Source of the DNA: an uncultured Candidatus Poseidoniales archaeon
GTDB lineage: Archaea > Thermoplasmatota > Poseidoniia > Poseidoniales > Poseidoniaceae
Assembly (NCBI GenBank): GCA_963997415.1
Contig: CAXEMN010000003.1
Coordinates: 804 to 64,803 of the forward strand
Reading direction: 5' to 3'
Length of the DNA stretch: 64,000 nt
The notes beneath the pieces were generated by a model. That model searched no databases. It saw only the letters and a program-made list of their open reading frames with translations, and was not told where the DNA came from. Shown here in pieces: positions 1 through 58,240 of this stretch. Position 1 is the first letter of the stretch. Every line of letters begins with the position of its first letter. The position numbers and the translations under genes were made by a program.

Positions 1-1016
1 GGCATTCGAGATGCCAATTTTTGGAAGGCGATTGCAGCTTCAGCCCAAGATTCCAGCCCCAATGCCTCAAACCCTTGCTGAAGCGTAGATTCCAATTCGG
101 GAAGACCGTCTAGGCGAACGCTGAGGGCTTGTGCTGGATGAAGATCAAGAGAAATGACACCCATCGGTTCCATGTCGGTAATTTCGGTAGAATCATGGGC
201 GTACATCGTAGGTTCTGCATCCATGGTGTGAACCACTTCGACGACCTGATCTTCTTCGGAGTAAATTTGCTCCATGTTTGGTGGTGCAGCGTCGATGCGC
301 CACATGGCAGGAACACCGGAATCAAATTCGGTTTCTGAAGCAACGTATTCTGCAGACGCAGATGGTGTCGATTCAACTTGCACAGCATCGATTCGAGGCA
401 TTGGTTCAGGTGCCACTGGCATGGCTTCAAGACGTGGCAATTCACTTGCTTTAGGTTGTGAAGCCAAAGGAGGGGGTTGCGATGCCGCAGGTGGCAAAGG
501 CATGGAATGTGCCGTCTCTGGCTTAGGAAGGTTCGGTGCTTCGAGGGGAAGGGGTTCTGGGACAGAAGCAACATCCGGCTCGGTTTGAACAGGATCGGCA
601 GAGGGTTCAGTTGCAGGTTCAGAATCTGAAGGAGGTTGCTCCGCAAGACCAGATGACTGAGCACTTACCAGCGGGAGTTGCTCCCCTTCTTCGGCTTCAT
701 CAAATGGCATGCCTGCTGCAGAACTACCAATTCCAAATGGTAGTCTAGAGATGTTGGTGTTTGAGGCACCAGAGAAGCCGAACGGAAGGCTCCCTTGAGG
801 TGCAGGCGCAGGCTCAGGTTGTTCGTCGATTTCTTCTTGAGCCTCAATGCCTTCAAGGTCATTCCACGAAGCGACCGCTTCATCGAGTCCTGGGACTTCT
901 GCGGGCAAAGGAGAACCATCATCGTGTTCGGTCAAATCGACTCGAATTTGGCTGCCACATGCTGGACAAGCGTTGCCTCCAAGGGAGAGCAAACCACAAA
1001 TCGTGCATTCAAACAT
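1..1016 (-). CDS. Zn-ribbon / Pro-rich acidic protein, probably continuing into a TPR-like region (3' end outside window)
   Basis: Not in the ORF track because it has no stop in the window. Manual translation from ATG 1016: MFECTICGLLSLGGNACPACGSQIRVDL (two CxxC), a long P/E/A-rich linker, then ...GFEALGLESWAEAAIAFQKLASRMP to the edge. Confidence 0.8.
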   Translation of the reverse strand, partial: MFECTICGLLSLGGNACPACGSQIRVDLTEHDDGSPLPAEVPGLDEAVASWNDLEGIEAQEEIDEQPEPAPAPQGSLPFGFSGASNTNISRLPFGIGSSAAGMPFDEAEEGEQLPLVSAQSSGLAEQPPSDSEPATEPSADPVQTEPDVASVPEPLPLEAPNLPKPETAHSMPLPPAASQPPPLASQPKASELPRLEAMPVAPEPMPRIDAVQVESTPSASAEYVASETEFDSGVPAMWRIDAAPPNMEQIYSEEDQVVEVVHTMDAEPTMYAHDSTEITDMEPMGVISLDLHPAQALSVRLDGLPELESTLQQGFEALGLESWAEAAIAFQKLASRM

Positions 1017-3544: not shown

Positions 3545-4171
3545 TCATTGAAGCGCTGAAAGGATGTCTGCAGTGATGTCATCAATCGCACGGTCGCCAT
3601 TGATGCGGTGAAATATACCTGCTGATTCATACCAGTCTGCAAGAGGTGAGGTTTGGTCATGATACGCCCCTAAGCGAGACAATACCGTGTCTTCATTGTC
3701 ATCTGCGCGGCGCTTTTCTACAAATCGATCACAGCCACAGCCATCTGGCCCCAGTGGATTGAAAATATCGTGGAAGACATTTCCACAGCCAGCGCAGGAG
3801 TACCGCCCACAAATCCGTTCCACAATGCGCTCATCAGGAACCTCAATAGCGATCACATGCGTTACTGCCGTGATGTCTGCAAGCGCTTCAGCTTGCGGAA
3901 TGGTTCGCGGGAATCCATCGAACATGACTCCGTTTTTGGCATCTGGGTGGGTGATTCGTTCCTTGATGAGATCGATGATCACTTCGTCTGGAACCAACTG
4001 CCCAGCATCCATGTATGTCTTGGCAAGAATACCAGTTTCTGTTCCAGCCTTCACTGCAGCACGAAGCATATCACCCGTGGAAATTTGAGGAAGTCCCGTC
4101 TGTTGGGTGATTCGCTCTGCTTGAGTGCCTTTGCCCGCACCAGGGGGTCCAAAGAGAACAATACTGCTCAT
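3545..4171 (-). CDS. adk: Adenylate kinase (bacterial type)
   Basis: P-loop GPPGAGKGT, ISTGDMLR, DGFPRT, RADD motifs. Confidence 0.96.
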   Translation of the reverse strand: MSSIVLFGPPGAGKGTQAERITQQTGLPQISTGDMLRAAVKAGTETGILAKTYMDAGQLVPDEVIIDLIKERITHPDAKNGVMFDGFPRTIPQAEALADITAVTHVIAIEVPDERIVERICGRYSCAGCGNVFHDIFNPLGPDGCGCDRFVEKRRADDNEDTVLSRLGAYHDQTSPLADWYESAGIFHRINGDRAIDDITADILSALQ

Positions 4172-4211
4172 GTACCTTCCAAAGGGTAGTCGGTTTTAGA
4201 CATGCGCCAAA

Positions 4212-7200
4212 CTATTGTCCATTTTGTTGGAGCCATTGATGGCCATAGTGTTGCCATTGCTCCATCGTCCAACCCGCTGGCAGACCTGTAGCTGGCAAAG
4301 GTGGTCCCACGGCTGGCGCTGGTGCTGGTGCGGGTGCTGGTGCGGGTGCTGGTGCGGGTGCGGGCATAGGTGTTGGAAGTGGTAGTTTTGGAAGGGGTTT
4401 GGGTGGCATTCCTGCTGGTGGCAAACCCGCTGGTAGGGCGCCCTTGGGAGGTAGGCCTCGAGGAGGCATGCCTTTGGGCACTGCAGCAGGGGCCGCTGGC
4501 AAATTAAGTGATTGAGCAAGAGCCGCCGCAATTTCATCTTTCGAGACTTCCCCACTTGCTATTTCATTGACTGCATGACCGATGTCAAGCGCTTCGTCGC
4601 GGCGGGTTCCAAGGTGATCAGGATTCACAAATGCATCTGGTGCAACAAGTTCGCTCCCATCATCTTCCAATTCCCCACTGCGCTTCATACGAAGAGCCAG
4701 AACCATTCCGATTGCAATCAATACTCCGATGAGTGGAATCGAAACGTAGAGTGGTAGAACGGCAAACAAACCACCATTGCTGTCCACGGATGAAACGGTG
4801 GTTTCTATTTCAAAAATTCCAATTTCATTCTCGCCGCTGGTCAAGGTGATTTGAGTGTACATGAGACCCTTGCTTGCAGAAGCCTTTGGCGTCACGGTGA
4901 CCTCAACAGTAAGGCTTTCACCAACGCCTAGGTTCTCAATTGAGGCATCGGAAAAAGAGACGCTCCAGTCAGAAGAAGCGTTGCCATCACTGTCGACAAC
5001 CGAAGCACCAAGGGTGCCATCGATCGGTAGATTGCCATCGTTACGAACGACGATTGATTGAGTTGCACCCTCTTCCTTGCCGATGCTTCTGTATGGGCGA
5101 ATCGTGTCGTCTGCAACAGTCAAGTTGGCAAATTCGGAGGGAAGAACAGCAATATCAACTCGTACAGAAGACTCGACAAGACGGCCATTATTTCCACCAG
5201 TTACCGTGATGAGTAAATCAAAGGCCTTATCCTCAGCAGGTGCATTTGCAGGGGGAATGAGACCAAACCGAATCGTCTTTTCTTCCCGTGGCTCAAGGTA
5301 AGTGACTGGATTGGCGAAACCAACGGTCCAGCCATCTGGGGCGAGTCCATTGGACCAGGCCAGAGTAAGCGGTGCATTTCCAGTGTTGGTGACGTTGAAG
5401 TTGCCATAACTAAAGGTCGAGCCAATGACGGTTTCAATCATGTTGTCCTCAGGCCCCTCAAGCGCAACAGCAAGTTCATCCTTCACCTTAAGCACTGTAG
5501 TGTTGGAGATGAAGACCTGAGCTGTAAATTCTGTACGGATGACAAAACTGTTGGCCTCACCTTCCTCAGCGACGCTGGGGACGCCAAAGAGGAAGTTCAC
5601 AGAAATCGAGACACCAGGTGCAATTTCGATCGTAACTTGTCGAGCATCGGTTTGCCCATCCACGGTTACTTCGATTGGCCATGTTGGGTTCGAAGGTTGA
5701 ACCTTCACCAGGAGTTCAAGGTCAGTGTTCCCTGTGTTTTCAACAGTGAGGTTCATGCTGACCTGTTCGCCGCTGTCCACGAGGACTTCTCGATTCGATG
5801 AAGAAGGCCCAATAGCCCCAAGATCATCATACAGATCAGCATCAAATGATTGTTGAGGCAGAACTGTGATGGTCGCTGACTCACTGAAGTTCATGGAAGC
5901 ATCGGTGCCAGAGGTCACATAGCAGGTCACAGTATCTGTCGACCCAGTGAGCGGCACGCCATTCACCACTGGTGGCACAAAGAGGTCAATCTTAATCGCA
6001 CGGTATTCAAGAATGCCAATGGCTTCAATTTCTAAGGTTGAGGAATTGGTATCCTTAAGCATAATCTGCCATCGGTTTTCCGATTCGCAACTGATCGAAT
6101 ACTGAGCAGGAGAATTCCCTATGTTGGCAACTGAGATTCTAAATCCGGCTGAGTCGCCAGGCTCTGCCTCCAAACCTTCAGTACCAAGAGGCGTGATGAG
6201 GACTTCATCCAGTTGTTCGATGACGAAGGTCATTCGCTGCGTATGGGCCACAGTAGGGTTGTCTTGGTACCTCGCAGTCACATCAACGACGAATGTGCCT
6301 GCGCGAGCGTATCGCGGCGAGGAGGGGTCGTCGAGGTTGGCGTCTTCGTCTTCAAGGTGGATGGTGAGCAATTGGAAATCACCTGCTTCGCCTTGCCCTT
6401 GAACAGTGTAGGGTCCTAATTGTGAGACGCTCTTTGACCATGTATCGACTGGTGAAAGCAGGAAATCTGGTCGCCCCGGTTGTGGAACTTGAACATTGGT
6501 TACGCTCAGTGTTACGTTCTTCTCGCCAGTGCCTTCATGAAGAATATGAATTGGAATATCGATACCAGTTTGATTTCGAACGTCAAATGTACGCAGGGCT
6601 GCAGCTTCTCTGTCTTCTGCTGTGATTGGAACGGTACCATCACTATTGAGCGCAACAACACGAACGCCAAGAGCTGTGACCTCGATATCTTGCTCCCAGA
6701 TGTTATTGTCAACACCAGTGGTTCCATCATTCATTTCTGCCACTTGATCATTGGTATCTACCCGCAACCTCATGCTGTGAGTGCCGGTGGTCAAAAACTG
6801 ATGTTGAATCAATAATGAATCAATTGTACCTGCTGCCAAACCTGGTCGGTCGCCTTCAAAGAGTGTCTCGCCTGAAGTTAAGTCTTCGAAAATCACTCGG
6901 AAGGTGCTTGTTGCTAGTGTCCCTTGGTTGATCCATCCTATGCGAATGGCGATCAAGTCATTGCGAAGTGGTTCAGGGGACGAAGGGATGATGCTACCGT
7001 CATACAAGGCCAAATCGGCTTGAGGGTTTGGTGTTGCATCAGCTGTGACGACGAGTCCGAAATCTTGAGTCGTACCGCCGCGGTGAAGCACTTTCACCAA
7101 CCATTGTCCGGTTTGTGTCAGGCTGCCAGGGGCGATTTTGATTCGTTCTACGTTGTTGATGGCATCCGACGACTGACCGCTCGAGGTGAACCCATTTGCG

Positions 7201-9179
7201 AAATTATTGCCGTACCACTCATTGCCTGATGGGTCGACAAGCACCAAATCAAGATTATTTACGAGCCTCGAATCACTCTGCGCAGCATTGGCAGAACCTG
7301 CAACATCAGACCAGACGAGGGTGATGTCAACGCCATGACTCGCATCCATCTCGAACGCGTAAAGCAGACCAAATCCTGCATCCAGTGGCGTGTTGTCATC
7401 CATGAAAGTGGTAAGTGCACTTGTGCTTGGCGAGGATGGATCCCAGACTGGAAGAACCGTGCGTTCAAGGTCGACTTGCCCCCAACCTTCAGCATCGTTT
7501 GGTATATCTGCAGCCCCGAGGTCTCTGGCGCCATTGATCATGGCTGCTTTGACGAGGGAGCCTGATGGTGAGTTGATTCCAACTTCTTCACGTATGAATT
7601 CTCGAGTGAGCGCAGCGACTCCCCCTGCGATGGCTGTGGCTTGAGAAGTACCAGAAAGCGAGGTGTAGACATCATCTCCATTGGCATGGGTTTCACTTGC
7701 ACATGCCGTCCCAGGCGATGTTTTTGCTTCTTCAGCTCGACCTGAACACAGGTCGACCCCAGGAGCCACTAAATCTGGCTTGATTCGACCATCAAGGCTC
7801 GGGCCGTTGCTGGAAAAAGAAGCCACGGTATCGAGGGTTGTACCCGTACCAGAGGCACCGATAGCGAGCACGTTCTTGGCCGTGCTCGGTGGCGTGATTT
7901 GTGAAGCACCTTGGGCTCCACGATCGCCAACCGAGAACAGTGGTAGCATTGCAGGCTTGTCATGCACGAGGATGTCAACCGAACGTGAGTCAGCAGAGTA
8001 TTGCCCATAGTTTCCATTTGCACCCCATGCATTGATGGCAACTCGAGCCGTCATTTGTTCTGCATCTCTAAGCAAATCGTAAATTGAACCAATTCGGCCA
8101 AAGACTCCAGTCGGGTCGTGTTCTAGAGCATACATGACAAGGTCGGCACTCGGCGCCATACCGGTCGAACTCGCGTTGCTTTGGCCACTACCAAGGGCAG
8201 AAACGGCAATATGAGTCCCGTGACCGGTGTTGGAATCAGCTGGCGATGAATCGAGTCCATATTGTGTGTAAACGCCTGCCACCCTACCAGATAAATCGGG
8301 ATGATCTTGATCCAACCCGGTGTCAGCAATCGCAATCATCTCACCGGAACCATCGAGTGTGAAGGTGGCGTTGTTCCCAACATTCAAAACACCTGAAGCA
8401 GCTGCTGCCGCAGCGTTATGAAGTGAAAATTCCACTGTTGGCTCAATCCAAATGATTCGCCCATCACTGGCTGCTGAGGCAATAAATGATGGTGCAAATT
8501 GTGCTGGGAGTTCGACTTCACACACACCAACGCCACACCAAGCATTGTGGGCGCCCATGCGGATGAGGTCAAGGCTGAGAGATTCAAATCCACCATAGGC
8601 CAAGTCTGCGGCTGGCACTAAAGCAAGACGTTCAATGGCGGGATCGAACAGCAGCGTAGAGTCAATTCGCCAGCCAGGGTGTTGGGCTCCAATCCAACGA
8701 ACATCATCGTCGGCATACAATTGACGGATCGACTCAGTTGGCGGGTCGGCCAAACGAACCAACCATGCTTCATCTCCGATGAAATCAATGGGGGTGAAGG
8801 AATGGCGTTCGACCAGTTGTTCCAACATCACGCCATCATGGGCATGGAGTTGTACAATAGCCAGCCCTGTCTTGACAAAATCATTCGAATCATAGAGGCC
8901 TACTGCTGGCAGTGGATGGTCGTCTGCAAGTGGATCGAAACTACCGATGTTCATCCTGAGGATGCCGGTTGATGGTTGGAGGGGAACTTGAATCAATTCC
9001 TCTGGACTGAGGACATGCCACATTGAGGCTGCGAGGGCGAGACGTTGCTCCTCAGTCATGATGGCATCATCAGAGGGTGTACCAGATTCAACAGGCATTG
9101 AACTGACCGTCAGCATTGGTGAAAGCGAGGTAAACACCAACAGAACAAGCATGAAAAGCGGTCGGCGTAGTGCTTGCAT
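4212..9179 (-). CDS. Large membrane-anchored S8 (subtilisin, KP-43-like) serine peptidase with CARDB / Ig-like (NEW3-type) repeats
   Basis: Signal peptide; triad motifs IADTG, GHGTH, SGTSQA; GRIKPDLVAPG; LVNNLDL..NNVE beta domain; repeated NxGN Ig-like units; C-terminal TM helix followed by a Pro-rich tail. Confidence 0.9.
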   Translation of the reverse strand: MQALRRPLFMLVLLVFTSLSPMLTVSSMPVESGTPSDDAIMTEEQRLALAASMWHVLSPEELIQVPLQPSTGILRMNIGSFDPLADDHPLPAVGLYDSNDFVKTGLAIVQLHAHDGVMLEQLVERHSFTPIDFIGDEAWLVRLADPPTESIRQLYADDDVRWIGAQHPGWRIDSTLLFDPAIERLALVPAADLAYGGFESLSLDLIRMGAHNAWCGVGVCEVELPAQFAPSFIASAASDGRIIWIEPTVEFSLHNAAAAAASGVLNVGNNATFTLDGSGEMIAIADTGLDQDHPDLSGRVAGVYTQYGLDSSPADSNTGHGTHIAVSALGSGQSNASSTGMAPSADLVMYALEHDPTGVFGRIGSIYDLLRDAEQMTARVAINAWGANGNYGQYSADSRSVDILVHDKPAMLPLFSVGDRGAQGASQITPPSTAKNVLAIGASGTGTTLDTVASFSSNGPSLDGRIKPDLVAPGVDLCSGRAEEAKTSPGTACASETHANGDDVYTSLSGTSQATAIAGGVAALTREFIREEVGINSPSGSLVKAAMINGARDLGAADIPNDAEGWGQVDLERTVLPVWDPSSPSTSALTTFMDDNTPLDAGFGLLYAFEMDASHGVDITLVWSDVAGSANAAQSDSRLVNNLDLVLVDPSGNEWYGNNFANGFTSSGQSSDAINNVERIKIAPGSLTQTGQWLVKVLHRGGTTQDFGLVVTADATPNPQADLALYDGSIIPSSPEPLRNDLIAIRIGWINQGTLATSTFRVIFEDLTSGETLFEGDRPGLAAGTIDSLLIQHQFLTTGTHSMRLRVDTNDQVAEMNDGTTGVDNNIWEQDIEVTALGVRVVALNSDGTVPITAEDREAAALRTFDVRNQTGIDIPIHILHEGTGEKNVTLSVTNVQVPQPGRPDFLLSPVDTWSKSVSQLGPYTVQGQGEAGDFQLLTIHLEDEDANLDDPSSPRYARAGTFVVDVTARYQDNPTVAHTQRMTFVIEQLDEVLITPLGTEGLEAEPGDSAGFRISVANIGNSPAQYSISCESENRWQIMLKDTNSSTLEIEAIGILEYRAIKIDLFVPPVVNGVPLTGSTDTVTCYVTSGTDASMNFSESATITVLPQQSFDADLYDDLGAIGPSSSNREVLVDSGEQVSMNLTVENTGNTDLELLVKVQPSNPTWPIEVTVDGQTDARQVTIEIAPGVSISVNFLFGVPSVAEEGEANSFVIRTEFTAQVFISNTTVLKVKDELAVALEGPEDNMIETVIGSTFSYGNFNVTNTGNAPLTLAWSNGLAPDGWTVGFANPVTYLEPREEKTIRFGLIPPANAPAEDKAFDLLITVTGGNNGRLVESSVRVDIAVLPSEFANLTVADDTIRPYRSIGKEEGATQSIVVRNDGNLPIDGTLGASVVDSDGNASSDWSVSFSDASIENLGVGESLTVEVTVTPKASASKGLMYTQITLTSGENEIGIFEIETTVSSVDSNGGLFAVLPLYVSIPLIGVLIAIGMVLALRMKRSGELEDDGSELVAPDAFVNPDHLGTRRDEALDIGHAVNEIASGEVSKDEIAAALAQSLNLPAAPAAVPKGMPPRGLPPKGALPAGLPPAGMPPKPLPKLPLPTPMPAPAPAPAPAPAPAPAPAVGPPLPATGLPAGWTMEQWQHYGHQWLQQNGQ
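4321..4362. repeat. Coding tandem repeat (GGTGCTGGTGCG)x3 plus a partial copy, encoding a (PA)n linker
   Basis: Three exact 12-mers at 4321, 4333 and 4345; translate to PAPAPAPA in the S8 protease tail. Confidence 0.9.
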
Positions 9180-9254
9180 ACGATAGCGACTTGTGGGACC
9201 TTTTTGAAAACGCCCCTTGATTGTGCCCCTACGGGGCACGACCGATTGCTCTGC

Positions 9255-20379: not shown

Positions 20380-22428
20380 TCAAGCCACGAGTTTGATGAC
20401 GCGTTCACAACCAGCACACGCAAAGCGGAATGGTCGCTCGTCGCTGAGCACGGCATTATTTGTCCCACAAGCTGGGCAAGGTATGCTTGGCGTATCGACC
20501 AAAGCCATCGCATCTTCGCTTAAGCGTATTCTTGGGCTCGATACCGCCGTTATCCACCACAACAAAATTGTGAAACCAACAGCACCACCTACGAACACGG
20601 CAGGATAGGCGAAGAAATGAATCAGAGCAATGATTGGCACCATGATCAATTCAAGCATAAGGATCCTTCGAGATTTTGTCCTCGTCATTCTCAAAGCGAT
20701 GACAAGGCCAGCGAAGAGAGCAAGACCAACACCCAAAGCAAGCGGCATCGGAGCATTGAGTGGGGAATTGGAAGGGATGAAGCTGATGGTGAAATCTTCG
20801 TCTTGATTGAGTCCATCACCCTCAACGGAGACAAATTCGCCCCAAGGATAACGCGATTGTGACACTTTCACCTCTTCAGTTTCCAAGACCTTAGCATCAA
20901 TAAAGGAGGCAAATCCAGAGGATGTGCCTTCAAGCGTGAGAGTGAGGTCTGACCAGAAAGGTGCAGGTTGAACGGTAATGAAACTCCTCAAAAGGACCAT
21001 TTTTTCGTTGCTTTGGATGTTCTCAGAAGTACGGAAAATAAGAGACACTGGGTGGTTGACCACATCTGGTTCACCATGCAAGTCCAATTCAATATCGATG
21101 TTTTCAAAGGCTTTGAAACTCCCAAGAAGTTCCTCAGCATCGATCCCAAGGCCCACGTTGAGGTAATAGGAGCACAGTCCTGATTGAGTCGTTGCTCCAG
21201 TCAGCATTTGCCGTTCGAATTCATTGACTTCAGTTGGTTCAATCGAACGACTGATTCGATCATCATCAGTCACTGCGCCTTCATCGAAACTTTGGAGCAC
21301 TTGTGACAATTCTGTGACTTCATCGCCGATGTGGTCAAGCCCCCAACGCATCCAGAATGCCATTTCATCATCAATGGTTACTGTTGTTTCTCGTGTGAGT
21401 TTCAGAACGCCATCTGCAGAGTCGAGTTCGAAGGTTCCAGTGACGGTGAGTTGACTTCCTTCGCCGTTGGTTTGTAGAGGCTCATCAGGAGGGTAATACG
21501 TACCTGTGCCCCCGGTCGAATCAAAGGTCTCGATCACAAACGATGCCATACCAGAAAGCGTACTGCTCCCTGCTTGTAGAACGAGTTCTACTTTTGCCTC
21601 AACGGTTTCCTCACCGCCTGCAGCATCAAGCCATGTCCATGTGATACGAACGCCATCGCCCTGTGATGTTTCAATTGGATCCCCGTCTAAGAGCACTCCA
21701 TTCACCCTCATATTGAGTGATTCTGAATTTGAGAGAATTTTCGTGCCCCATGAAGAATCGAGGACGACTGAAAAGTACACCTCGGAGCCTTCAACCTCAG
21801 GCTCGAGCAATGTGAGTGACATCAATGGCATTTCCCCTTCAAGCACTGAATCACTGTCTTCACTGCCCCATTGGAATTCAAGTTGGGCCTCTCCAGCAGG
21901 TAGACTGAACACTACGCTTCGAGCAGTGACCGTCAAGACCACATTGCTTGAGGAAGAAATTGTGGTCGTGTCGACATCGATATCGAAACTTAAGGTGCCT
22001 TTGCCTTGGGCCAAAAAGGAACTTCCTGGAGCGGTTTCTGCTGTGAAGGTTTGGGAGCCGATCTGTAATGAGGCAGTTGCGTTGACTTGAGCTCCTGCGG
22101 CATTGGTCACTTCATAGACCATGTCAAAAGTCCACGTTGATGCGGGAACTGTTCCGGGCCAGACATCGGGTAAGGCCCAAGTCCCGACGGTTTCTTCAGA
22201 TGTCACTGCAGTAGCGATGGTTTTCGACATCGTCGTTTCGGACAAATCTTGCATAAAGGGTGAGAGGGTACCGCTGCTTTCAGAGCCGATCAAATGGAGC
22301 GATACATCGACTGAATCACAACAAACGACAGTGTCTTCTGCTTGGGTAAAACCCACCAATGAACTGTTCATTGGCGCCATGATTGCAACCAAAAAAATCG
22401 AAGCAAACAACAATGGACGCCAAGACAT
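20380..22428 (-). CDS. Hypothetical membrane protein: signal peptide, large beta-rich ectodomain, about 3 C-terminal TM helices, terminal Zn ribbon
   Basis: Long ORF ending CPACGTNN...FACAGCERVIKLVA. Confidence 0.75.
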   Translation of the reverse strand: MSWRPLLFASIFLVAIMAPMNSSLVGFTQAEDTVVCCDSVDVSLHLIGSESSGTLSPFMQDLSETTMSKTIATAVTSEETVGTWALPDVWPGTVPASTWTFDMVYEVTNAAGAQVNATASLQIGSQTFTAETAPGSSFLAQGKGTLSFDIDVDTTTISSSSNVVLTVTARSVVFSLPAGEAQLEFQWGSEDSDSVLEGEMPLMSLTLLEPEVEGSEVYFSVVLDSSWGTKILSNSESLNMRVNGVLLDGDPIETSQGDGVRITWTWLDAAGGEETVEAKVELVLQAGSSTLSGMASFVIETFDSTGGTGTYYPPDEPLQTNGEGSQLTVTGTFELDSADGVLKLTRETTVTIDDEMAFWMRWGLDHIGDEVTELSQVLQSFDEGAVTDDDRISRSIEPTEVNEFERQMLTGATTQSGLCSYYLNVGLGIDAEELLGSFKAFENIDIELDLHGEPDVVNHPVSLIFRTSENIQSNEKMVLLRSFITVQPAPFWSDLTLTLEGTSSGFASFIDAKVLETEEVKVSQSRYPWGEFVSVEGDGLNQDEDFTISFIPSNSPLNAPMPLALGVGLALFAGLVIALRMTRTKSRRILMLELIMVPIIALIHFFAYPAVFVGGAVGFTILLWWITAVSSPRIRLSEDAMALVDTPSIPCPACGTNNAVLSDERPFRFACAGCERVIKLVA

Positions 22429-22496
22429 GGTTGTCACTTGGCACGACCAAACGCACATGGCTCATAACATGCACGATGATTCGTGAGTTAAATTGA

Positions 22497-35114: not shown

Positions 35115-35125
35115 TGAGAAAAGCC

Positions 35126-38100
35126 TCACTTCATCATTGACTCAACGTACTGCCAACCAAAGTGGTTCCACTGTTCTTGTGTCCAACCTTCAGGTAAGCC
35201 CGTTGGCGGTAGAGGTGGTGGGGCACGCTGGCCGGGAACCGTTGGTGATGGAGCAGGTGCAGCCACCGGTGCAGGTTGGGGAGCAGGCGCCGGTGGTTGT
35301 TGAGGCTCATTGCTGAACACTTCAGGCACCTCTTTCTTTGAATTCATTTCATCAACAACAGACTGGGTTTCATCGCTGATTCCGCCTTCAAGCCCTTCAG
35401 TACGAATCCTTCTGTTCATAACAAGCATCCACATTGCAAGCGATAATGAAAGCAGAGCAACGAGGTAAAGGACAATGGCAAAGGTGCTTTCTGAAGCCTG
35501 TTGAGCAAGCGCATCACCGTCACGGACGGTTTCGCCCTTCACAATCAAAGGATCAACGGTGCGACGGTCCATCTCGACTTCATCGACAAGAACCACCAAA
35601 CGGTACTCGACGCTTTGGCCTTGAGGAACATCGGCCACTGTACCAAGTTGAACTTCGGCGAATGCACCAGCTGAGGCAACAACATCGACTCGAACGACTT
35701 CTGCCCAGAAGCCACCTTCGACGGCCCGTTGGAGCACATAAGCGACATCACCCTTACCACCTTGGTTCAGAACTGCGACATTGAGGTTGACAGCCTCGCC
35801 TTCAACTGGTGAAGGGTTGCTCCATGAAATCATTGTGTCCTCATGGCTGAGATCAAGCGATGGCCCAAGCAGAGCCAGTGGCCATGAAGCAATTGGTGTT
35901 AACAGAGAATTGTCCATGGTATCAAACGGATTACCAGCGTCGTCAGAGCCCGAGACCCAGACATCGACCATATAGGAAGGTAGGAGCATTGTGGCACCGG
36001 CATCGGTCAAGTCAAGGTAGCCAGTCCAGAAGAATTGTTCACCGAACGGGGTGGTGTCAGGTAGAGGTACACTTCCGCGCGAAATCTCAGCCTCACCAGC
36101 CCTCACGCGGTAATGCAGCACCGCTGGCTCATCAAGATTGAAACCGTAATCGTCGAGTGTTTCCAGCATGACCAGAAGGTCTCCAGCATCACCAATCGAG
36201 AGTGGGTCACCGGGTGAAACCTCATTGAGGGAGATGGCCGAAATGGTTGGACGGGAACTGTCAACAGCAAGTCGAACCCGAGGGATAATCGGTGTCTCGT
36301 CGAGAGCAATTCCAGGTAAATCATCAAGATCTAATCTCAAATCGAGGTGTCCCGAACGAACGGATGGAATCAACAGATCCAAACTGAATTCGCCACCATC
36401 CCTTGTGGAGGTTCGCCATTGGTAATCGTAATCCCCAAACACAACGTCAAATGCACCTGCAGGAGCAGGCGTGTCGTCTTCTGAGAACAAGACACGGCCA
36501 GTCACTCTCAGTGCTTGTCCTGCCCCGATGAGGGTTTCACTGAATTCATTGTTGTAGTGATTGGTACCATCACGGAGTTCAACCGCACGAATGTGTCCAT
36601 CCATTGTATCGAATCGGAAATCATTGTCGAGGCTCCATGCATCATTACCGAGTCCTGCCTTTGCTTCAAAACAAGGGGTGACTTCGCCATCATTACAAGG
36701 TAAATCCGTCACCAAAACCTTCGGAATGATTCGATTTTCGCCATTGGTATCAAACAGTTCAGGGAAGGTCCATGTGAGTTGGAACCGTGCTAGAATCTTG
36801 ATGATGCTGTTGTTGTTTTCATCGATTGAAACAGATGAATAGAGGTTTGACACAGCAATGTAGCTGGAACCTGCTTCCATGATGGCCGTTGGCATTCCGT
36901 CTTCATCTGCCATCAAGGAGATGAACAGTGAAGTGTCTTCATCCTCATAATCGCCTCCAAGAGCGAGTTGAACATATTGGATGTCTTGCCAACCGTTGCG
37001 ATCCGAAAGAACAATTTGAGCTGAATATGGAATACCTGGATGCAATGGAGCTTTGTCATCGTGTCCTAGAATCGTTGAATTATCAAGATCTAATTCTGGT
37101 TCAAATTCGACGCGGATTTTGTATGTACCCAAATCATTGTCCCAGTCTGGAACGGTTTCTCCAGGAGCATAACCGCATGAAATTGTAGAATCGGGGCACA
37201 CTGGACCCTTCCCCATGGCGACAGCATTGTTTTGTGCATCTTTACCAGTGACATAGTACGAAACTCGTTCTCCGTGGTCGAGCATCGAGTCGTCAATAAG
37301 TCCTTGGAAGATGTTGAGACCGCCAGCTCTTGTTTCTGGTGAGGAGAGGGTTTTCATCTCATATTCATCTTCATTTGGCAATCCGTCAAAATTGTAATCA
37401 CTGCATCCGATTGCCTTACTGGCTTTACATCCAATCCAATAGTGCAGTGAGATTTGATTTGGTGGATCGACTGAGTCTTGAATGAGCACGCTCAACGATT
37501 GGCCACCGGGCGCAGGTGGCCCAGCATGGCGTTCTTCTCCATCACCAGGCGTTGAAGAAAGAACGAGAGGTGAATTTCCGTCAAGAATCAATCGAAGCGT
37601 GTTGTAGCCTGGATTGGCATAGGTGGAGCCATTTGGTAAATCACTTGCAATGACATAGAAAATCATTCCACCTGGTGCGGATTCTAACGGTGCGGTGAAT
37701 GTGATGTTGTATTCGCCAAAGCCGGGGTTCTGTTCGACTGCGAGCACAACAGGCTCACCGATTGGGTCGCCATCATAGGTGACATTTTGTCCGATAATGG
37801 TCAAATTAAATTGACCAGCGAGTGGCGAAAGTTGGGAATTTTGGAAATGGATGCCGCCAGTAAAGGTCAGATTAAATCCACCACGCACCCAATCTTGGTT
37901 GTACAACTGCCGACCTGTTTCTTCAAACACTCGAACGCCATCGAGTTGAATGTCATTTTCGACAACGAGATCCAGCGAACTGGTTTCCCATGCCGCAACA
38001 GCAAGGCCAAGATCATCTTCGACTGAAATCAAGGCTTCAGTTCCAGCTTCATCGTCCCAAGTCCAATCGACTCGCATCGGCATTCGAATCGATACGACAT

Positions 38101-40540
38101 CGCCCGCATCGGTGGTCGAAGTGCAATTGGCTGCATCGAAGTGAACCGCACCATCACCGTTGCTGATAACGGAACAAACATCGCCACGTTCCCAACTGAA
38201 GGCTGGATTTTCGCCATGCGAATTGTTCAGCGCAATGAGCGCATCAGTGACATAATCTACATCGTCACCAGGAGCAACACGAGTTACCAAGTTTCGGTAC
38301 ACGCCATCAGGTGCCACGAGACCACCCTCAAGGGATGCATCAACCGCCCGGGTTTGCATCTTGTAAGCCACGTCGATGTTTGTGATTTTTACTCGTCCTG
38401 AACTTGCTGCTTTGATGGCGATTGGCACGATCACATCGCCGTCACCATTCTCTGGAACGGCGTCATTAAAGGCTGCGATCAGTGATGGTGCATATTTGAC
38501 ATCGACGCCAATCTGAGACTCATCGCTTGCCTCAACCGCTGATTCATTGAGGAAGAGAAGAGACTCCCACTCCCAAGTCTGATCGTTGCCTATGTCGATT
38601 CTGGGCCGATCAGGATAGCCTTCTTCATATTCCAGAAGCATAGAATCAACGGTCGGAGTGTGGCTTGGGTCACTGGTTGACATCGTCACGGCATAGCGAA
38701 CTTTTGAACCTGCTTCGTCGGCGGTGAAACTTACTTCTTGACCGTTGGTTGCCGGCAGCCAAGTGGTGCCGTTGTCGTTTGACACTTGAATTTGGAGCGA
38801 AGTGCCTGCTGGTTCAGTCGATGTCCATTGCGGACGAACTTTTCCGACCTTCGTACCGGCCGTGAATGGGTCAGAAGTCCACGAACCACTCGCGAGGTAG
38901 GACGTTGCCATTTCAACATCAACCCACCAAGATACTGCGGTGGAGCCAATCAGTTGTGCCTTCCAAACGAGTTCAGTGCCTGGATAGGCAAAGTGGATTG
39001 TTTCATTTGAAGTCACTGACTCCCAGTGAGTCCCATTGTCAGCAGAGATCCAGTAATCGACGCGATCGCCAGTTGATGCTGCAGACCAGTACGTCTGCAT
39101 ATTCGCAGCCACAATGTCCTCGCCAGAAGTTGTCACTGGGCCATACCAAGTGGTCGTACCTGGTGCAGGCGTGGTTTTGTATTGCCAACCTGTCCCATAT
39201 TCTCGGTAGTAAAGTGTGGATGATGACCAGGTCGAATAGCCGCAATCGACGGTGACAAATCGGTTGCCATCAAATTGGAGGCCATAGCCAAGGGCGGAGA
39301 GAAGGCGAGTGCCCAACTGTGGAACCAGTGAGGAGGAGGAACCAGAGATTGCCCATGCCTCAAGTTGGTCTTTGTCTTGGCTCGTACTTCCTTTTTGGCA
39401 TCGCATGAAAAAGGTCGTTGAATTCACTTCCAATCCGCGAACTTGTTGCCCAGTCTTACCACATTCAAATGATGTGCCAGATGAAGATGAATAGGAGTAC
39501 ATGTTGGTACCGCGTTGATATTGGCCATCACCTGTTGTTGAGAATGTGTATGGCACGATGCGGCGTTGGGTATTGTGAACAATCCAAACTTCTTCTGTCG
39601 AACGATCATAGGCAATCGCAGTATAATCCGAGTATTGCGGTGATACATCATAGGTATCTAAGCACGTCCAAATGTCGTCTCTTGAGATATCCATCTCGAC
39701 CACACGATGGTATTGAGTTGGTGCAGAGGAACTGTAGTGGTATCGATAACCAGAGAGAATGGCAAACATACGTTCATCATCAGTCACCGTCCAATCACGG
39801 AAGCCATACGAACCGTAGTATGTGCTCGGGTGAAGGAAATTAATATTGCAATCCGCTTCTTCAAGATGAATGGTCGATTCGCGAGTGAGATTGTTTGGGT
39901 ATAATCGTTGAACGATGTTGTTGAAATTGGAGGTGCTCCATGTGGACATGAACAGCCAATCATGGTGCTTGAGAACTGCACCTTGAGATTGCTTGACAAG
40001 GCTGGATGCTGTTTTCAGATTTTGTTGAGAAAATCTATTCTCTGTCGCATTCGAAGTGTGTGGTTGTCGTAATGCATACGAGCCGTTATCCAACCAAGCA
40101 TCGGAATTTGAATCTGTAATTTCGTCATAGCCATGGGGGAAGAACGATTCACTCGTGTTTGAAAACGCCAGACTCAAATCCCCAGACCTTGCATCAACTG
40201 AAGATGAAAGTCCAGCCATCCAGTCCGAACGGTCATCGTCAATAAGCTGCGACCAACCTGTGGCAGATGCCCCTGAGAGGGTCATGCTCACATCCGTGAT
40301 CTTGGCACCTCGTGGCAAAGCAACCTCTGCACCGGCATCAGCATTACCGCCTTGGTATAGAGCCACATATTCAGTTGAACCATCAGCGAATTCGTAAACA
40401 TGACGAGCAACGCCAGATGCATCGCTTGGCTGAACCAAAACATCAGCAAAAGGCGACATCGGAGACAACACCATGATGGTGAAGAGCAAGAACATCACGC
40501 CGCGGCCGGCAGGAATATTGTCATGCACAACGCGTCCCAT
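35126..40540 (-). CDS. Giant (about 1800 aa) membrane-anchored surface protein with propeller-like/Asp-box and Ig-like regions
   Basis: Signal peptide; SADNGTHW and SNDNGTTW Asp-box-like motifs; C-terminal TM helix, Pro-rich linker and LPEGWTQEQW tail. Confidence 0.8.
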   Translation of the reverse strand: MGRVVHDNIPAGRGVMFLLFTIMVLSPMSPFADVLVQPSDASGVARHVYEFADGSTEYVALYQGGNADAGAEVALPRGAKITDVSMTLSGASATGWSQLIDDDRSDWMAGLSSSVDARSGDLSLAFSNTSESFFPHGYDEITDSNSDAWLDNGSYALRQPHTSNATENRFSQQNLKTASSLVKQSQGAVLKHHDWLFMSTWSTSNFNNIVQRLYPNNLTRESTIHLEEADCNINFLHPSTYYGSYGFRDWTVTDDERMFAILSGYRYHYSSSAPTQYHRVVEMDISRDDIWTCLDTYDVSPQYSDYTAIAYDRSTEEVWIVHNTQRRIVPYTFSTTGDGQYQRGTNMYSYSSSSGTSFECGKTGQQVRGLEVNSTTFFMRCQKGSTSQDKDQLEAWAISGSSSSLVPQLGTRLLSALGYGLQFDGNRFVTVDCGYSTWSSSTLYYREYGTGWQYKTTPAPGTTTWYGPVTTSGEDIVAANMQTYWSAASTGDRVDYWISADNGTHWESVTSNETIHFAYPGTELVWKAQLIGSTAVSWWVDVEMATSYLASGSWTSDPFTAGTKVGKVRPQWTSTEPAGTSLQIQVSNDNGTTWLPATNGQEVSFTADEAGSKVRYAVTMSTSDPSHTPTVDSMLLEYEEGYPDRPRIDIGNDQTWEWESLLFLNESAVEASDESQIGVDVKYAPSLIAAFNDAVPENGDGDVIVPIAIKAASSGRVKITNIDVAYKMQTRAVDASLEGGLVAPDGVYRNLVTRVAPGDDVDYVTDALIALNNSHGENPAFSWERGDVCSVISNGDGAVHFDAANCTSTTDAGDVVSIRMPMRVDWTWDDEAGTEALISVEDDLGLAVAAWETSSLDLVVENDIQLDGVRVFEETGRQLYNQDWVRGGFNLTFTGGIHFQNSQLSPLAGQFNLTIIGQNVTYDGDPIGEPVVLAVEQNPGFGEYNITFTAPLESAPGGMIFYVIASDLPNGSTYANPGYNTLRLILDGNSPLVLSSTPGDGEERHAGPPAPGGQSLSVLIQDSVDPPNQISLHYWIGCKASKAIGCSDYNFDGLPNEDEYEMKTLSSPETRAGGLNIFQGLIDDSMLDHGERVSYYVTGKDAQNNAVAMGKGPVCPDSTISCGYAPGETVPDWDNDLGTYKIRVEFEPELDLDNSTILGHDDKAPLHPGIPYSAQIVLSDRNGWQDIQYVQLALGGDYEDEDTSLFISLMADEDGMPTAIMEAGSSYIAVSNLYSSVSIDENNNSIIKILARFQLTWTFPELFDTNGENRIIPKVLVTDLPCNDGEVTPCFEAKAGLGNDAWSLDNDFRFDTMDGHIRAVELRDGTNHYNNEFSETLIGAGQALRVTGRVLFSEDDTPAPAGAFDVVFGDYDYQWRTSTRDGGEFSLDLLIPSVRSGHLDLRLDLDDLPGIALDETPIIPRVRLAVDSSRPTISAISLNEVSPGDPLSIGDAGDLLVMLETLDDYGFNLDEPAVLHYRVRAGEAEISRGSVPLPDTTPFGEQFFWTGYLDLTDAGATMLLPSYMVDVWVSGSDDAGNPFDTMDNSLLTPIASWPLALLGPSLDLSHEDTMISWSNPSPVEGEAVNLNVAVLNQGGKGDVAYVLQRAVEGGFWAEVVRVDVVASAGAFAEVQLGTVADVPQGQSVEYRLVVLVDEVEMDRRTVDPLIVKGETVRDGDALAQQASESTFAIVLYLVALLSLSLAMWMLVMNRRIRTEGLEGGISDETQSVVDEMNSKKEVPEVFSNEPQQPPAPAPQPAPVAAPAPSPTVPGQRAPPPLPPTGLPEGWTQEQWNHFGWQYVESMMK

Positions 40541-40598
40541 GATTGAGCACACGGGCTTGAGGTTTTAGACAATACGCAGTCATGTCACTGAACTGTTA

Positions 40599-46352: not shown

Positions 46353-46577
46353 TGTATCACCGGAGTGCAAGCCATAGGCTTCGCTGACCTTCAACCCTAA
46401 ATCGACACTTATGAGGATGATGGAGCGATGTTCGTACATATCGTGCTTCAAGGCACGGATTTCGGGCACGGTTGGACGGATGAACCGTTCCCTCGAAGAC
46501 TCGAATCTGTTGAAAAAAAGGACACTTCTCGGAAAATTGAATCGCTTTGTTCAAAGTCCCGCCGCGATGCGCTCGCT

Positions 46578-58204: not shown

Positions 58205-58240
58205 AACTGGCACCACTGCTCATGCTCATTCACACGAGAG

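What the first reader, a model, noticed from the sequence alone, without database searches (positions are those of the whole stretch)
4212..4310. Conserved Trp-rich C-terminal tail shared by unrelated giant surface proteins: candidate cytoplasmic docking or sorting system (copy 1)
Seen: the S8 protease ends GPPLPATGLPAGWTMEQWQHYGHQWL and the otherwise unrelated ~1800 aa protein (35126-40540) ends PPPLPPTGLPEGWTQEQWNHFGWQYV. Both follow the same layout: ectodomain, single TM helix, acidic/Pro-rich flexible linker, then this ~26 aa module at the extreme C-terminus. Known: described archaeal sorting signals (PGF-CTERM etc.) have the motif before the TM helix and only a short basic tail, and LPxGW is how WW domains begin. 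Inference: this is a portable cytoplasmic module (PPLPxTGLPxGWTxEQWxH[YF]GxQ[WY]) that tethers or clusters diverse extracellular enzymes and adhesins on a common intracellular partner or on each other's Pro-rich linkers. I know of no functional description of it.
Basis: partly seen in the sequence, partly recalled or inferred. Interest (0 to 1): 0.78.

Follow-up and report, generated by a model that had tools for sequence, protein, structure and literature searches.

The report
Shared cytoplasmic tail cap, Poseidoniales
Many unrelated cell-surface proteins of the abundant ocean archaea Poseidoniales end, inside the cell, in the same small tryptophan-rich piece that no database describes; it probably plugs them into a still unknown internal partner.

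Summary
Both window proteins end in the same 26-residue module, PP[LVI]PxxGLPxGWTMEQWxxYGxQ[YW]L, followed by 5 more residues. It sits behind one membrane helix, a basic stop-transfer cluster and a disordered linker.

- **Copies:** this genome holds 10, on 10 different ectodomains.
- **Range:** all 151 Poseidoniales genomes searched have it. None of 28+2 sister-group genomes do. Of 237 other Thermoplasmatota, one gave a marginal hit.
- **Selection:** it acts on the protein, not the DNA (third codon positions 42% identical against 67% for residues).
- **Catalogues:** no match in Pfam, NCBIfam, solved-structure sequences or two fold searches, and nothing in the four literature searches.
- **Not a WW domain or a PGF-CTERM signal:** AlphaFold2 predicts a proline arm plus one aromatic helix.
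- **New here:** a profile link (80-85%) to a second, three-helix tail cap. Orthologues of one carrier swap the module for a different cap. The only carrier found in the most reduced genus searched lies directly upstream of the membrane protease LonB in 24 of 27 genomes.

Best reading: a docking handle for an unidentified cytoplasmic partner. A homodimer test gave no answer.

This scan has already reported the same module on other genomes at least eight times.

The parts
4212..9239 (-). Gene for a 1675-aa (from first GTG) membrane-anchored subtilisin-type (S8) surface protease with CARDB and NEW3 Ig-like domains; carrier 1 of the module. The likely true start is residue 21 (MQALRR...).
   Evidence: ORF. 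Pfam: Peptidase_S8 E 1.7e-41, CARDB 3.3e-08, NPCBM_assoc 9.5e-08. The Atlas record starts at residue 21.
4692..4757 (-). Single predicted transmembrane helix (LPLYVSIPLIGVLIAIGMVLAL), followed by the basic cluster RMKRS
   Evidence: Translation; hydropathy scan (score 2.46).
4308..4691 (-). Predicted cytoplasmic linker of about 129 residues: 22% Pro, 11% Asp+Glu, ending in an (Ala-Pro)n run
   Evidence: No Pfam or NCBIfam family at E <= 1 apart from low-complexity noise.
4230..4307 (-). Module copy 1: GPPLPATGLPAGWTMEQWQHYGHQWL (26 aa), followed by QQNGQ (4215-4229) and the stop codon (4212-4214)
   Evidence: AlphaFold2 predicts a helix over MEQWQHYGHQWLQQN with pLDDT 88-90.
35126..40552 (-). 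Gene for an 1808-aa surface protein with no significant Pfam domain; carrier 2 of the module
   Evidence: ORF. The best Pfam hit is only BNR at E 0.32.
35417..35482 (-). Single predicted transmembrane helix (FAIVLYLVALLSLSLAMWMLVM), followed by NRRIR
   Evidence: Translation; hydropathy scan (score 2.49).
35222..35416 (-). Predicted cytoplasmic linker of about 65 residues, acidic then Pro/Ala-rich
35144..35221 (-). Module copy 2: PPPLPPTGLPEGWTQEQWNHFGWQYV (26 aa), followed by ESMMK (35129-35143) and the stop codon

Best explanation
The module is a small, lineage-specific C-terminal "tail cap". A proline-rich arm (PP[LVI]PxxGLPxGW) leads into one amphipathic aromatic helix (TMEQWxxYGxQ[YW]L). 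It hangs on a flexible linker of 20-130 residues on the cytoplasmic side of the single membrane anchor of type-I surface proteins. I read it as a docking handle: one conserved cytoplasmic or inner-membrane-face partner recognises the same epitope on many different surface proteins, and so localises, organises or controls them.

Shown: the sequence, its near-C-terminal position behind a membrane helix, its spread over unrelated ectodomains, its restriction to and universality in Poseidoniales, and selection at the protein level.

Inferred: the cytoplasmic side (from signal peptides, extracellular domain types and basic residues after the helix), the fold (a prediction) and the docking role.

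Unknown: the partner.
For: **Portability**
- 10 carriers in this genome have different ectodomains: S8 protease, PKD/CARDB, NEW3, thrombospondin-type repeats, a propeller-like repeat, or none known.
- The two window carriers share nothing else.

**Position**
- 148 of the 150 listed representatives are true copies.
- Among all 150, the match ends within 10 residues of the protein end in 119 and within 30 in 131.
- A membrane-helix-like segment lies upstream in 31 of 32 representatives with at least 150 residues upstream. Median linker is 57 residues, range 20-129.

**Topology**
- All 10 carriers have at least 1 Arg/Lys within 10 residues after the helix, and 7 of 10 have at least 3.
- 9 of 10 have an N-terminal hydrophobic segment. 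The tenth is cut by a contig end.

**Conservation**
- Eight positions are invariant in 148 representatives: P-3, G0, P2, G4, W5, Q9, W10, G14.
- 10 of the 11 positions G-L-P-x-G-W-T-M-E-Q-W are at least 93% conserved or conservatively substituted, polar ones (T, E, Q) included. That is more than a 30-residue fold alone would need.

**Selection on the protein**
- Between the 10 paralogues, residues are 67% identical and third codon positions 42%.
- Identical residues use the same codon 37% of the time.

**Distribution**
- 151 of 151 genomes of the order and 22 of 22 genera have it.
- Sister families: 0 of 28 and 0 of 2.
- Other genomes of the phylum: 1 of 237, at E 0.005.

**Fold**
- AlphaFold2 gives mean pLDDT 81.4, with a helix at residues 29-43 of the 45 modelled and no strand.
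- A profile link (80-85% probability, E 6.6e-6 and 1.4e-5) joins the helix to the last helix of a second cap family predicted as a three-helix mini-domain.

**Interchangeability**
- Orthologues of one carrier in four genomes of three genera end in a different small cap at the same place.

**Precedent**
- Chemoreceptor C-terminal pentapeptides at the end of a linker form a high-affinity site for CheR and CheB (abstracts of 10.1101/2024.03.07.583918 and PMC8609364).
Against: - No partner was found. No gene family recurs next to the 10 carrier genes in this genome.
- Two order-specific candidate hubs do not share the module's universal distribution. With these queries they were not found in the streamlined genera that still carry the module.
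- No reader domain for proline-rich or helical peptides was detected in this 92%-complete genome: GYF_2, WW, MIT, Snf7.
- The invariant residues are largely Gly, Pro and Trp, the kind a mini-fold alone would fix.
- The existence of several different, interchangeable caps fits a generic physical role as well as it fits docking.
- Topology and fold are predictions.
Confidence: 0.5

Rival explanations
1. The module is a handle or degradation tag for the membrane-anchored AAA+ protease LonB. LonB would engage the long cytoplasmic tails of surface proteins through it, for turnover or quality control.
For: - The only carrier found in the most reduced genus searched (g13, one match per genome) is a ~1030-1180-aa protein, here C1:11346-14876.
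- Its gene lies directly upstream of LonB on the same strand in 24 of 27 Poseidoniales genomes where both positions were seen, covering 10 of 13 genera.
- LonB identity: Lon_C E 1.2e-33 and the LonB LID domain.
- LonB is the membrane-bound ATP-dependent protease of archaea (abstracts of PMC4343526 and PMC9263693).
- From established knowledge of Lon (recalled): it favours aromatic-rich tags on unstructured termini.
Against: - The wider region is syntenic too. The MFS transporter downstream and the methyltransferase-like gene upstream are also conserved, so the adjacency may be inherited gene order.
- In three genera the carrier has moved away from LonB.
- LonB is equally present in the sister group, which lacks the module.
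- I saw no conserved order-specific insertion in a 13-sequence LonB alignment.
- A degradation tag would not need 26 conserved residues.
Confidence: 0.15
2. The module is a generic structural end-cap: a tiny stable fold that closes the free end of a long disordered tail, for example to keep processive proteases from starting there. It would have no specific partner.
For: - Several unrelated small caps close similar tails in the same genome: a three-helix cap, Trp-rich beta-type caps, zinc ribbons and Tyr-rich helical caps.
- One orthologue swaps the module for another cap.
- The invariant residues are mostly Gly, Pro and Trp.
- AlphaFold2 is fairly confident of a defined conformation, including the proline arm (pLDDT 75-88).
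Against: - Polar positions T, E and Q are also conserved at 93-100% across 148 representatives and across all paralogues. A bare fold rarely demands that.
- 2 of 10 copies in this genome carry 18-35 further residues after the module, so there it is not the end.
Confidence: 0.1
3. The module is a self-association unit that clusters surface proteins through contacts between modules.
For: The helix has one aromatic face (W, Y, W/Y, L) with an invariant Gly in its middle. That pattern is compatible with close helix-helix packing. This is inference only.
Against: There is no positive evidence. The module is net acidic (0 to -5), which does not favour self-association.
Confidence: 0.07
4. The module is an in-plane membrane anchor: the aromatic amphipathic helix folds back onto the inner membrane surface.
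For: The helix is rich in Trp and Tyr.
Against: - The core has almost no Lys or Arg, and the module is neutral to acidic.
- The conserved Pro, Gly and polar positions have no role in such a helix.
Confidence: 0.05
5. The module is a truncated WW-type domain that binds the proline-rich linkers of neighbouring tails.
For: - It opens with GLPxGW.
- A profile search of solved structures ranks the second WW domain of Salvador first (7bqg E 0.012, 2dwv E 0.093).
- PPLP-type stretches lie in the module and in the linkers.
Against: - Those E-values are below significance, and the alignments rest on GLPxGW and G..Y only.
- The Pfam WW model hits none of the 10 tails.
- The second signature Trp-Pro is missing, because the protein ends.
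- AlphaFold2 predicts a helix, not strands.
- The related three-helix cap is helical.
Confidence: 0.05
6. The module is a nascent-chain regulatory or arrest peptide acting inside the ribosome tunnel (Pro-Pro plus Trp, as in known arrest peptides; recalled).
For: The PP[LVI]P and invariant W/G/P pattern. This is inference only.
Against: - The distance to the membrane helix (20-129 residues) and to the stop codon (3-50 residues) varies widely.
- The conserved amphipathic helix is not explained.
Confidence: 0.03

Closest known systems
[quoted passage not shown]
   Same: A very short domain, predominantly C-terminal, found behind many unrelated domains. Its function is still unknown. In that paper oligomerisation was proposed and not supported by the authors' first experiments.
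   Different: No sequence match: the Pfam SHOCT model hits none of the tails. The module is restricted to one archaeal order, has a proline arm and Trp residues, and always follows a membrane anchor.
WW domain (Pfam PF00397), nearest the second WW domain of Salvador/SAV1 (7bqg, 2dwv)
   Same: It opens with GLPxGW and has an aromatic G..Y further on. The size class is similar, and it sits in a proline-rich context.
   Different: It is below every significance threshold. It lacks the second Trp-Pro and the third strand. It is predicted helical.
PGF-CTERM signal with archaeosortase A (TIGR04126 / TIGR04125)
   Same: A shared C-terminal element on diverse archaeal surface proteins. Both systems coexist in this genome: archaeosortase A at C2:60909-61760 (95.2 bits) and one PGF-CTERM match over the cut-off.
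   Different: The order of parts is reversed: here it is helix, basic cluster, long tail, then motif. None of the 10 carriers matches the PGF-CTERM model. The module would stay in the cytoplasm and is not a cleavage signal of that kind.
Chemoreceptor C-terminal pentapeptide tether (NWETF type) for CheR and CheB (abstracts of 10.1101/2024.03.07.583918 and PMC8609364)
   Same: A conserved aromatic C-terminal element at the end of a flexible linker on a membrane protein, acting as a docking site for cytoplasmic proteins. This is what I think the module works like.
   Different: That tether is five residues, not 26. It sits on one receptor family, not on many unrelated ectodomains. Its partners are known.
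Acidic proline-rich domains with EAGR boxes, and proline-rich adhesin tails, of the Mycoplasma attachment organelle (PMC9262362, passages read)
   Same: A wall-less cell type, acidic and proline-rich segments combined with a short box rich in aromatic and glycine residues, and a link between surface adhesins and an internal scaffold.
   Different: No sequence relation: no Pfam family at E <= 1 or <= 10 on the tails. EAGR boxes sit in cytoskeletal proteins rather than at the end of adhesin tails. Whether Poseidoniales lack a wall is not known to me.
Second, uncatalogued tail cap of the same genomes (consensus ...PGWDEAMVQxYLDQGWTMDQLxEYYQEQV)
   Same: The same position on giant type-I proteins. 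There is a profile-profile link over 22-23 columns, LPxGWTMEQWxxYG to LDQGWTMDQLxxYY (84.8% with E 6.6e-6; 80% with E 1.4e-5).
   Different: It is predicted as a three-helix mini-domain (pLDDT 86.9) without the proline arm. It was found in 66 of 101 genomes of the order, not in all. Neither HMM finds the other family at its threshold.

Membership tests
WW domain (PF00397) | Match to the family model at or above its curated cut-off | tested here: not met
   No WW hit at E <= 1 on the two window tails or at E <= 10 on the 45-residue tail. The whole-genome six-frame scan gave one unrelated hit at E 0.26 and none on the 10 tails.
WW domain (PF00397) | Two signature Trp about 20-22 residues apart, the second followed by Pro (recalled definition) | tested here: not met
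   The sequence shows 12 residues from the first Trp to the last aromatic. In 8 of 10 copies the protein ends 3-9 residues later.
WW domain (PF00397) | Three-stranded antiparallel sheet | tested here: not met
   AlphaFold2 predicts one helix (residues 29-43) and no strand, at pLDDT 88-90 there. This is a prediction, not a structure.
PGF-CTERM / archaeosortase A substrates (TIGR04126) | Motif, then membrane helix, then short basic tail at the extreme C-terminus, and a match to the model | tested here: not met
   The order here is helix, basic cluster, 25-129-residue linker, then module. The two model matches in the genome lie in other ORFs.
SHOCT (PF09851) | Match to the family model | tested here: not met
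   Five weak genome hits (best E 0.0064), none in a carrier tail. No hit in the hmmscan of tails at E <= 10.
UBA (PF00627) | Match to the family model | tested here: not met
   No hit for the module. Only the separate Tyr-rich tail class scores just below the cut-off (21.0 bits against 22.4, E 3.1e-4, and E 0.008). That class shows no profile link to the module (2% probability).
Three-helix tail cap of Poseidoniales (uncatalogued; alignment A4) | Profile-profile similarity over the GW-helix unit | tested here: inconclusive
   hhalign gives 84.8% (213 against 30 sequences) and 80.0% (A1 against A4) over 22-23 columns. HMM searches do not cross-detect.
Tethered C-terminal docking peptide (chemoreceptor pentapeptide type) | Conserved aromatic element at the end of a flexible linker on a membrane protein | tested here: met
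Tethered C-terminal docking peptide (chemoreceptor pentapeptide type) | Binds a defined cytoplasmic protein | not testable with these tools
   No partner is known.

The most novel reading that the evidence does not exclude
Poseidoniales run a "tail-cap code". A repertoire of small, interchangeable cytoplasmic end domains sits on flexible tails: this Trp-helix cap, a related three-helix cap, Trp-rich beta-type caps, zinc ribbons and Tyr-rich helical caps. Together they wire much of the cell's surface proteome to a submembrane hub or to the LonB protease. That would give these planktonic archaea a eukaryote-like way to position, cluster or remove adhesins and exo-enzymes from the inside.
Probability: 0.2. 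Interest if true: 0.85.

Novelty: new variant of a known kind. Interest (0 to 1): 0.62.

Why it matters
Poseidoniales are among the most abundant archaea of the surface ocean and have never been grown in culture. Their giant surface proteases and adhesins are thought to drive their use of proteins and particles.

A single conserved handle on the inner end of about ten such proteins per cell, universal in the order and not found outside it, points to an unrecognised layer of organisation between the cell surface and the cytoplasm. It could concern positioning, clustering or regulated removal.

It also gives a concrete 26-residue bait for finding the partner, and a clean marker for annotating Poseidoniales surface proteins.

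Tried and rejected
**Binding and fold**
- Homodimer prediction of the module (residues 13-45 of alignment A2, two copies): "no answer", score 0.00 in both runs, controls not run. This counts neither for nor against.
- Fold searches of the module model: Foldseek against PDB gave 0 matches at E <= 10, and VIA-align wide gave 0 chains at Z >= 2.
- Fold search of the three-helix cap model: nothing at E <= 0.001, only generic three-helix hits at E >= 2.
- ESM Atlas on the tail: three unnamed clusters at 0.78-0.84, below the level of a lead.

**Other collections**
- Viral contigs: 97 pattern matches, none confirmed by tblastn.
- NCBIfam on six tails: only low-complexity noise, for example GltJ at 20.9 bits against a cut-off of 450.

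**Candidate reader domains in this 92%-complete genome**
- GYF_2: none.
- WW: one unrelated hit.
- MIT: best E 0.69.
- Snf7: none.

**Candidate partners**
- Shared neighbours of the 10 carrier genes: none, apart from the two tandem paralogues on C39.
- Roadblock/coiled-coil giant (C6:52437-55616): found in 19 of 19 genomes of the own family and 4 of 11 Thalassarchaeaceae.
- Zinc-ribbon/TPR protein of this window: the same distribution.
- With these queries neither was found in genera g12-g15 and g17, which do carry the module. Neither fits as a universal partner, though divergence could hide them.
- LonB: I saw no conserved order-specific insertion in a 13-sequence alignment.
- FtsZ-type C-terminal mimicry: the one FtsZ/CetZ-like ORF found does not end in a similar motif.

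**Family links**
- Link of the module to the Tyr-rich, UBA-like tails: hhalign 2% (module) and 8% (three-helix cap).

**RNA**
- Parts of window 4000-6000 had no contig cover, and the depth spike at 4268-4401 falls on the (Ala-Pro)n repeat. Neither is evidence of anything.

**Literature**
- Four searches found no description: Poseidoniales + C-terminal + transmembrane + motif; Marine Group II + adhesion + surface proteins + cytoplasmic tail; archaea + type I membrane protein + cytoplasmic tail + conserved C-terminal; Poseidoniales + S-layer.
- I saw only the listings and abstract starts of those hits.
A mention in a supplement cannot be excluded.
Full report
**What is in the window.**
On the minus strand, the ORF 4212-9239 encodes a 1675-residue protein. 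It has a subtilase domain (Peptidase_S8, E 1.7e-41) plus CARDB and NEW3 Ig-like domains. The ORF 35126-40552 encodes an 1808-residue protein without any significant Pfam domain.

The module lies at 4230-4307 and 35144-35221.

Each protein has the same layout:
- an N-terminal hydrophobic segment;
- one strongly hydrophobic helix near the end (about 4692-4757 and 35417-35482);
- a basic cluster right after it (RMKRS, NRRIR);
- a linker of 129 or 66 residues that is proline-rich and acidic.

BLASTP of the two proteins aligns nothing at E <= 0.01 but the module (E 0.001).

**It is not chance and not a DNA repeat.**
- A strict pattern found 10 hits in the six-frame translation of the 1.97-Mb genome. 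All lie 18-50 residues from the end of ORFs of 388-1812 residues.
- The same pattern gave 0 hits in each of 20 shuffles of all 19,229 ORFs.
- An HMM of the ten scored them at E 1.6e-17 to 1.6e-14, and the next ORF at 0.16.
- Across the ten paralogues the 26 codons are 67% identical as residues and 76% at codon positions 1+2, but only 42% at position 3.
- Identical residues share the codon in 37% of 665 comparisons. Selection therefore acts on the peptide.
- Contigs from RNA libraries of three studies cover the module region at 95% identity or more. Examples are 4076-4342, 4107-4343 and 4188-4337. Such libraries can hold DNA, so this is only a weak sign of transcription.

**Anatomy across the ten carriers.**
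- All ten have one late membrane helix followed by at least one Arg/Lys within ten residues. Seven have three or more.
- Nine have an N-terminal hydrophobic segment. The tenth is cut by a contig end.
- Linkers are 25-129 residues long, 7-22% proline, with net charge +2 to -15.
- The module itself is neutral to acidic (0 to -5).
- 3-9 residues follow it in eight copies, and 18 and 35 in two.
- Ectodomains differ: S8 protease; PKD plus CARDB (two tandem paralogues); NEW3/CARDB; thrombospondin type 3 repeats; a propeller-type repeat; a weak Ig hit; or nothing.

These domain types, the signal-like N-termini and the positive-inside rule put the tail in the cytoplasm. This is an inference. Nothing here measures topology.

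**Distribution.**
- The 10-row profile found the module in 151 of 151 genomes of the order and in 22 of 22 genera.
- The window's own family has about 5-12 matches per genome. The second large family has mostly 3 (range 1-8).
- At phylum level, 301 genomes were searched. All 63 other genomes of the order matched. None of 8 genomes of the sister family did. Of all 237 genomes outside the order, one matched, marginally (E 0.005).
- A class-level sample gave 30 of 30 for the order, and 0 of 28 and 0 of 2 for the two sister families.
- Among 1.84 billion representative proteins, 640 match at E <= 0.001 and 369 at <= 1e-10.
- Of the 150 listed, 148 are true copies. The other two are unrelated GLPxG[WF] repeat proteins.
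- Among all 150, the match ends within 10 residues of the protein end in 119 and within 30 in 131. Many of these are gene fragments from short contigs.
- Among true copies with at least 150 residues upstream, 31 of 32 have a membrane-helix-like segment there. With at least 200 residues upstream it is 20 of 21. The median linker is 57 residues.
- The only names any source gives to full-length relatives are "hypothetical protein", some from Poseidonia sp. No precomputed Pfam domain covers the tail.

**Conservation pattern.**
Anchored on the first Gly of GLPxGW, eight positions are invariant in 148 representatives: P-3, G0, P2, G4, W5, Q9, W10 and G14. Other positions are nearly fixed:
- L1 in 146;
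- T6 in 138, otherwise Ser;
- M7 in 137;
- E8 in 134, otherwise Asp;
- Y13 in 144;
- L18 in 139.

Positions 3, 11, 12, 15, 16 and 19 onwards vary. Lys and Arg are rare throughout.

**Fold.**
With an 81-row alignment, AlphaFold2 gives mean pLDDT 81.4 and pTM 0.48. It predicts one helix over MEQWQHYGHQWLQQN and no strand. Block means are 75 for the PPLP stretch and 88-90 for GLPAGW plus the helix.

On a helix, W10, Y13/G14 and W/Y17-L18 fall on one face, with the invariant Gly in its middle. Thr6 with Glu8/Gln9 looks like a helix cap. A proline arm packed against that aromatic face would resemble the pancreatic-polypeptide or Trp-cage type of mini-fold. That comparison is recalled, and I could not check it, because the tool returns no coordinates. 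Neither fold search returned a match.

**What it is not.**
- No Pfam family at E <= 1 (or <= 10) and no NCBIfam family other than low-complexity noise covers the tails.
- A profile search of solved-structure sequences ranks the second WW domain of Salvador first, but at E 0.012-0.093 and resting on GLPxGW and G..Y.
- The Pfam WW model finds none of the ten tails. The second Trp-Pro is absent and the prediction is helical, so it is not a WW domain.
- The genome does have archaeosortase A and a PGF-CTERM protein. The module proteins do not match that signal, and their order of parts is reversed.
- The SHOCT and UBA models do not hit the module.

**A relative inside the same genomes.**
Three other giants of this genome end in ...PGWDEAMVRSYLDQGWTMDQLVEYYQEQV-type tails.
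- This second family occurs in 66 of 101 genomes of the order. It is in all 49 genomes of the own family and in 14 of 49 of the second family.
- AlphaFold2 models it as three short helices (pLDDT 86.9, pTM 0.61).
- Profile-profile comparison aligns the module's LPxGWTMEQWxxYG with the start of its third helix, LDQGWTMDQLxxYY. The probability is 84.8% (E 6.6e-6) and 80% (E 1.4e-5).

I take the module to be a probable derivative of this cap, in which a proline arm replaces the first two helices. The link is moderate, not proven.

**Caps can be swapped.**
The carrier at C1:11346-14876 (1177 residues, weak CARDB) has orthologues in four genomes of three genera (G002, G005, G015, G017). They are 37-41% identical over about 855-950 aligned residues. 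These orthologues sit elsewhere in the genome. After their membrane anchor they end in a different small cap (...DYTHLPAGGNYVTGEGGETVYLAPDGTAWAMQADNSFVRTQ type) instead of the module.

A crude scan of this genome shows several other recurrent tail endings on single-pass giants: Trp-rich beta-type repeats, CPxC...CPxC zinc ribbons and Tyr-rich GYPxDYA helices. The module is therefore one member of a repertoire of cytoplasmic end pieces.

**Search for the partner.**
- No gene family recurs beside the ten carrier genes.
- In the streamlined second family, three carriers are syntenic with this genome: the S8 protease (followed by adenylate kinase, as in the window), a protein next to the thermosome gene, and the 1030-1180-residue protein above.
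- The last of these is the only carrier found in genus g13 (one match per genome).
- It lies directly upstream of the membrane protease LonB, on the same strand, in 24 of 27 genomes where I saw both positions. That covers 10 of 13 genera.
- It does not lie there in G002, G005 and G015.
- In ten sister-group genomes, other genes precede LonB.
- Because neighbouring genes are syntenic too, this is a lead and not evidence of binding. I saw no order-specific conserved insertion in a LonB alignment.
With these queries they were not found in the genera g12-g15 and g17, which do carry the module. They therefore fit poorly as a universal partner. Their distribution instead matches that of the three-helix cap.
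- No GYF, WW, MIT or Snf7 domain was detected in this genome.
- The one complex job, a homodimer of the module, returned no answer.

**Conclusion.**
The finding is a real, uncatalogued, order-wide C-terminal module on the predicted cytoplasmic tails of diverse surface proteins. The strict conservation of a contiguous epitope that includes polar residues, on a flexible tether and on many unrelated carriers, fits a docking handle best (confidence 0.5).

The main rivals are a LonB-related handle or tag (0.15) and a partner-less structural end cap (0.1). The partner and the function remain open.

Earlier notes of this scan describe the same module on other genomes and reach the same "docking handle, partner unknown" reading.
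- the codon-level test;
- the class- and phylum-level census;
- the profile link to the three-helix cap;
- the cap swap in orthologues;
- the LonB synteny;
- the exclusion of several candidate readers.

Noticed in passing
window 53825-58219 (-) and 20383-22461 (-); also G000 contigs listed: Other single-pass giants end in different recurrent cytoplasmic caps. One is a Trp-rich beta-type ending (...HPGWLWDETSNSWVPDPNY) on the 1465-aa protein. Another is a CPxC...CxxC zinc ribbon on the 693-aa protein. Elsewhere in the genome there are Tyr-rich GYPxDYA helical tails, which score just under the Pfam UBA cut-off (21.0 against 22.4 bits).
   Followed up: partly
G000 C39:4394-8227 (locus L008) and proteins P0028, P0032, P0033, P0115 and others; G000 C6:52437-55616: A subfamily carries 30-70 further residues after the module, ending in a second short motif at the extreme C-terminus (...LSGLLDDFDL / LLDDLDL/F). 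The Roadblock/coiled-coil giant of the same genomes ends in a similar conserved ...LE..LS.LD[LF] in 23 of 24 orthologues seen. The two may share a docking motif.
   Followed up: partly
window 3-1016 (-), whole gene G000 C3:416-1828: A cytoplasmic 468-aa protein with an N-terminal zinc ribbon, a long acidic and proline-rich disordered region with repeated LPFG[IF] motifs, and a TPR-like helical C-terminal domain. It was found in 19 of 19 genomes of the own family and 4 of 11 of the second family, and in none of 30 sister-group genomes.
   Followed up: partly
window 34662-35129 (-): A 155-aa ORF without any Pfam family starts with a GTG that overlaps the stop codon of the 1808-aa carrier by 4 bases. 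It is therefore probably translationally coupled to the end of the tail.
   Followed up: no
G000 C1:9193-14876 and loci L022, L025, L027, L028, L030, L048-L054: The module carrier of about 1030-1180 aa, LonB and an MFS transporter form a conserved co-directional block. In the own family a zinc-ribbon-capped giant lies just upstream, beyond a divergent methyltransferase-like gene.
   Followed up: yes
loci L035-L043 (sister-group genomes), about 1.7-3.0 kb: A 409-419-aa sister-group protein ends in a SHOCT-like sequence (...LAEMRESGILSEEEF...KSKLL). The 435-aa protein at the same place in G306 ends in Cys-rich zinc-ribbon-like repeats instead. End pieces may be swapped in the sister group too. 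Homology between the two proteins was not tested.
   Followed up: no
order-level tallies: The three-helix cap, the Roadblock/coiled-coil giant and the zinc-ribbon/TPR protein share one distribution in the genomes sampled. All are present in the own family and in genera g10, g11 and g16, and were not found in g12-g15 and g17. This could reflect a functional set, or simply genome streamlining.
   Followed up: partly
window 40599-46469 (-): The 1956-aa protein just upstream of carrier 2 is rich in Asp-Gly calcium-binding-type repeats. It has no late membrane helix and no tail, so not all giants here are anchored this way.
   Followed up: no
window 4268-4401: RNA-library contig depth rises 10-100-fold exactly over the (Ala-Pro)n-coding repeat. 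Many short unrelated contigs pile up there, so it is a low-complexity artefact and not expression.
   Followed up: yes
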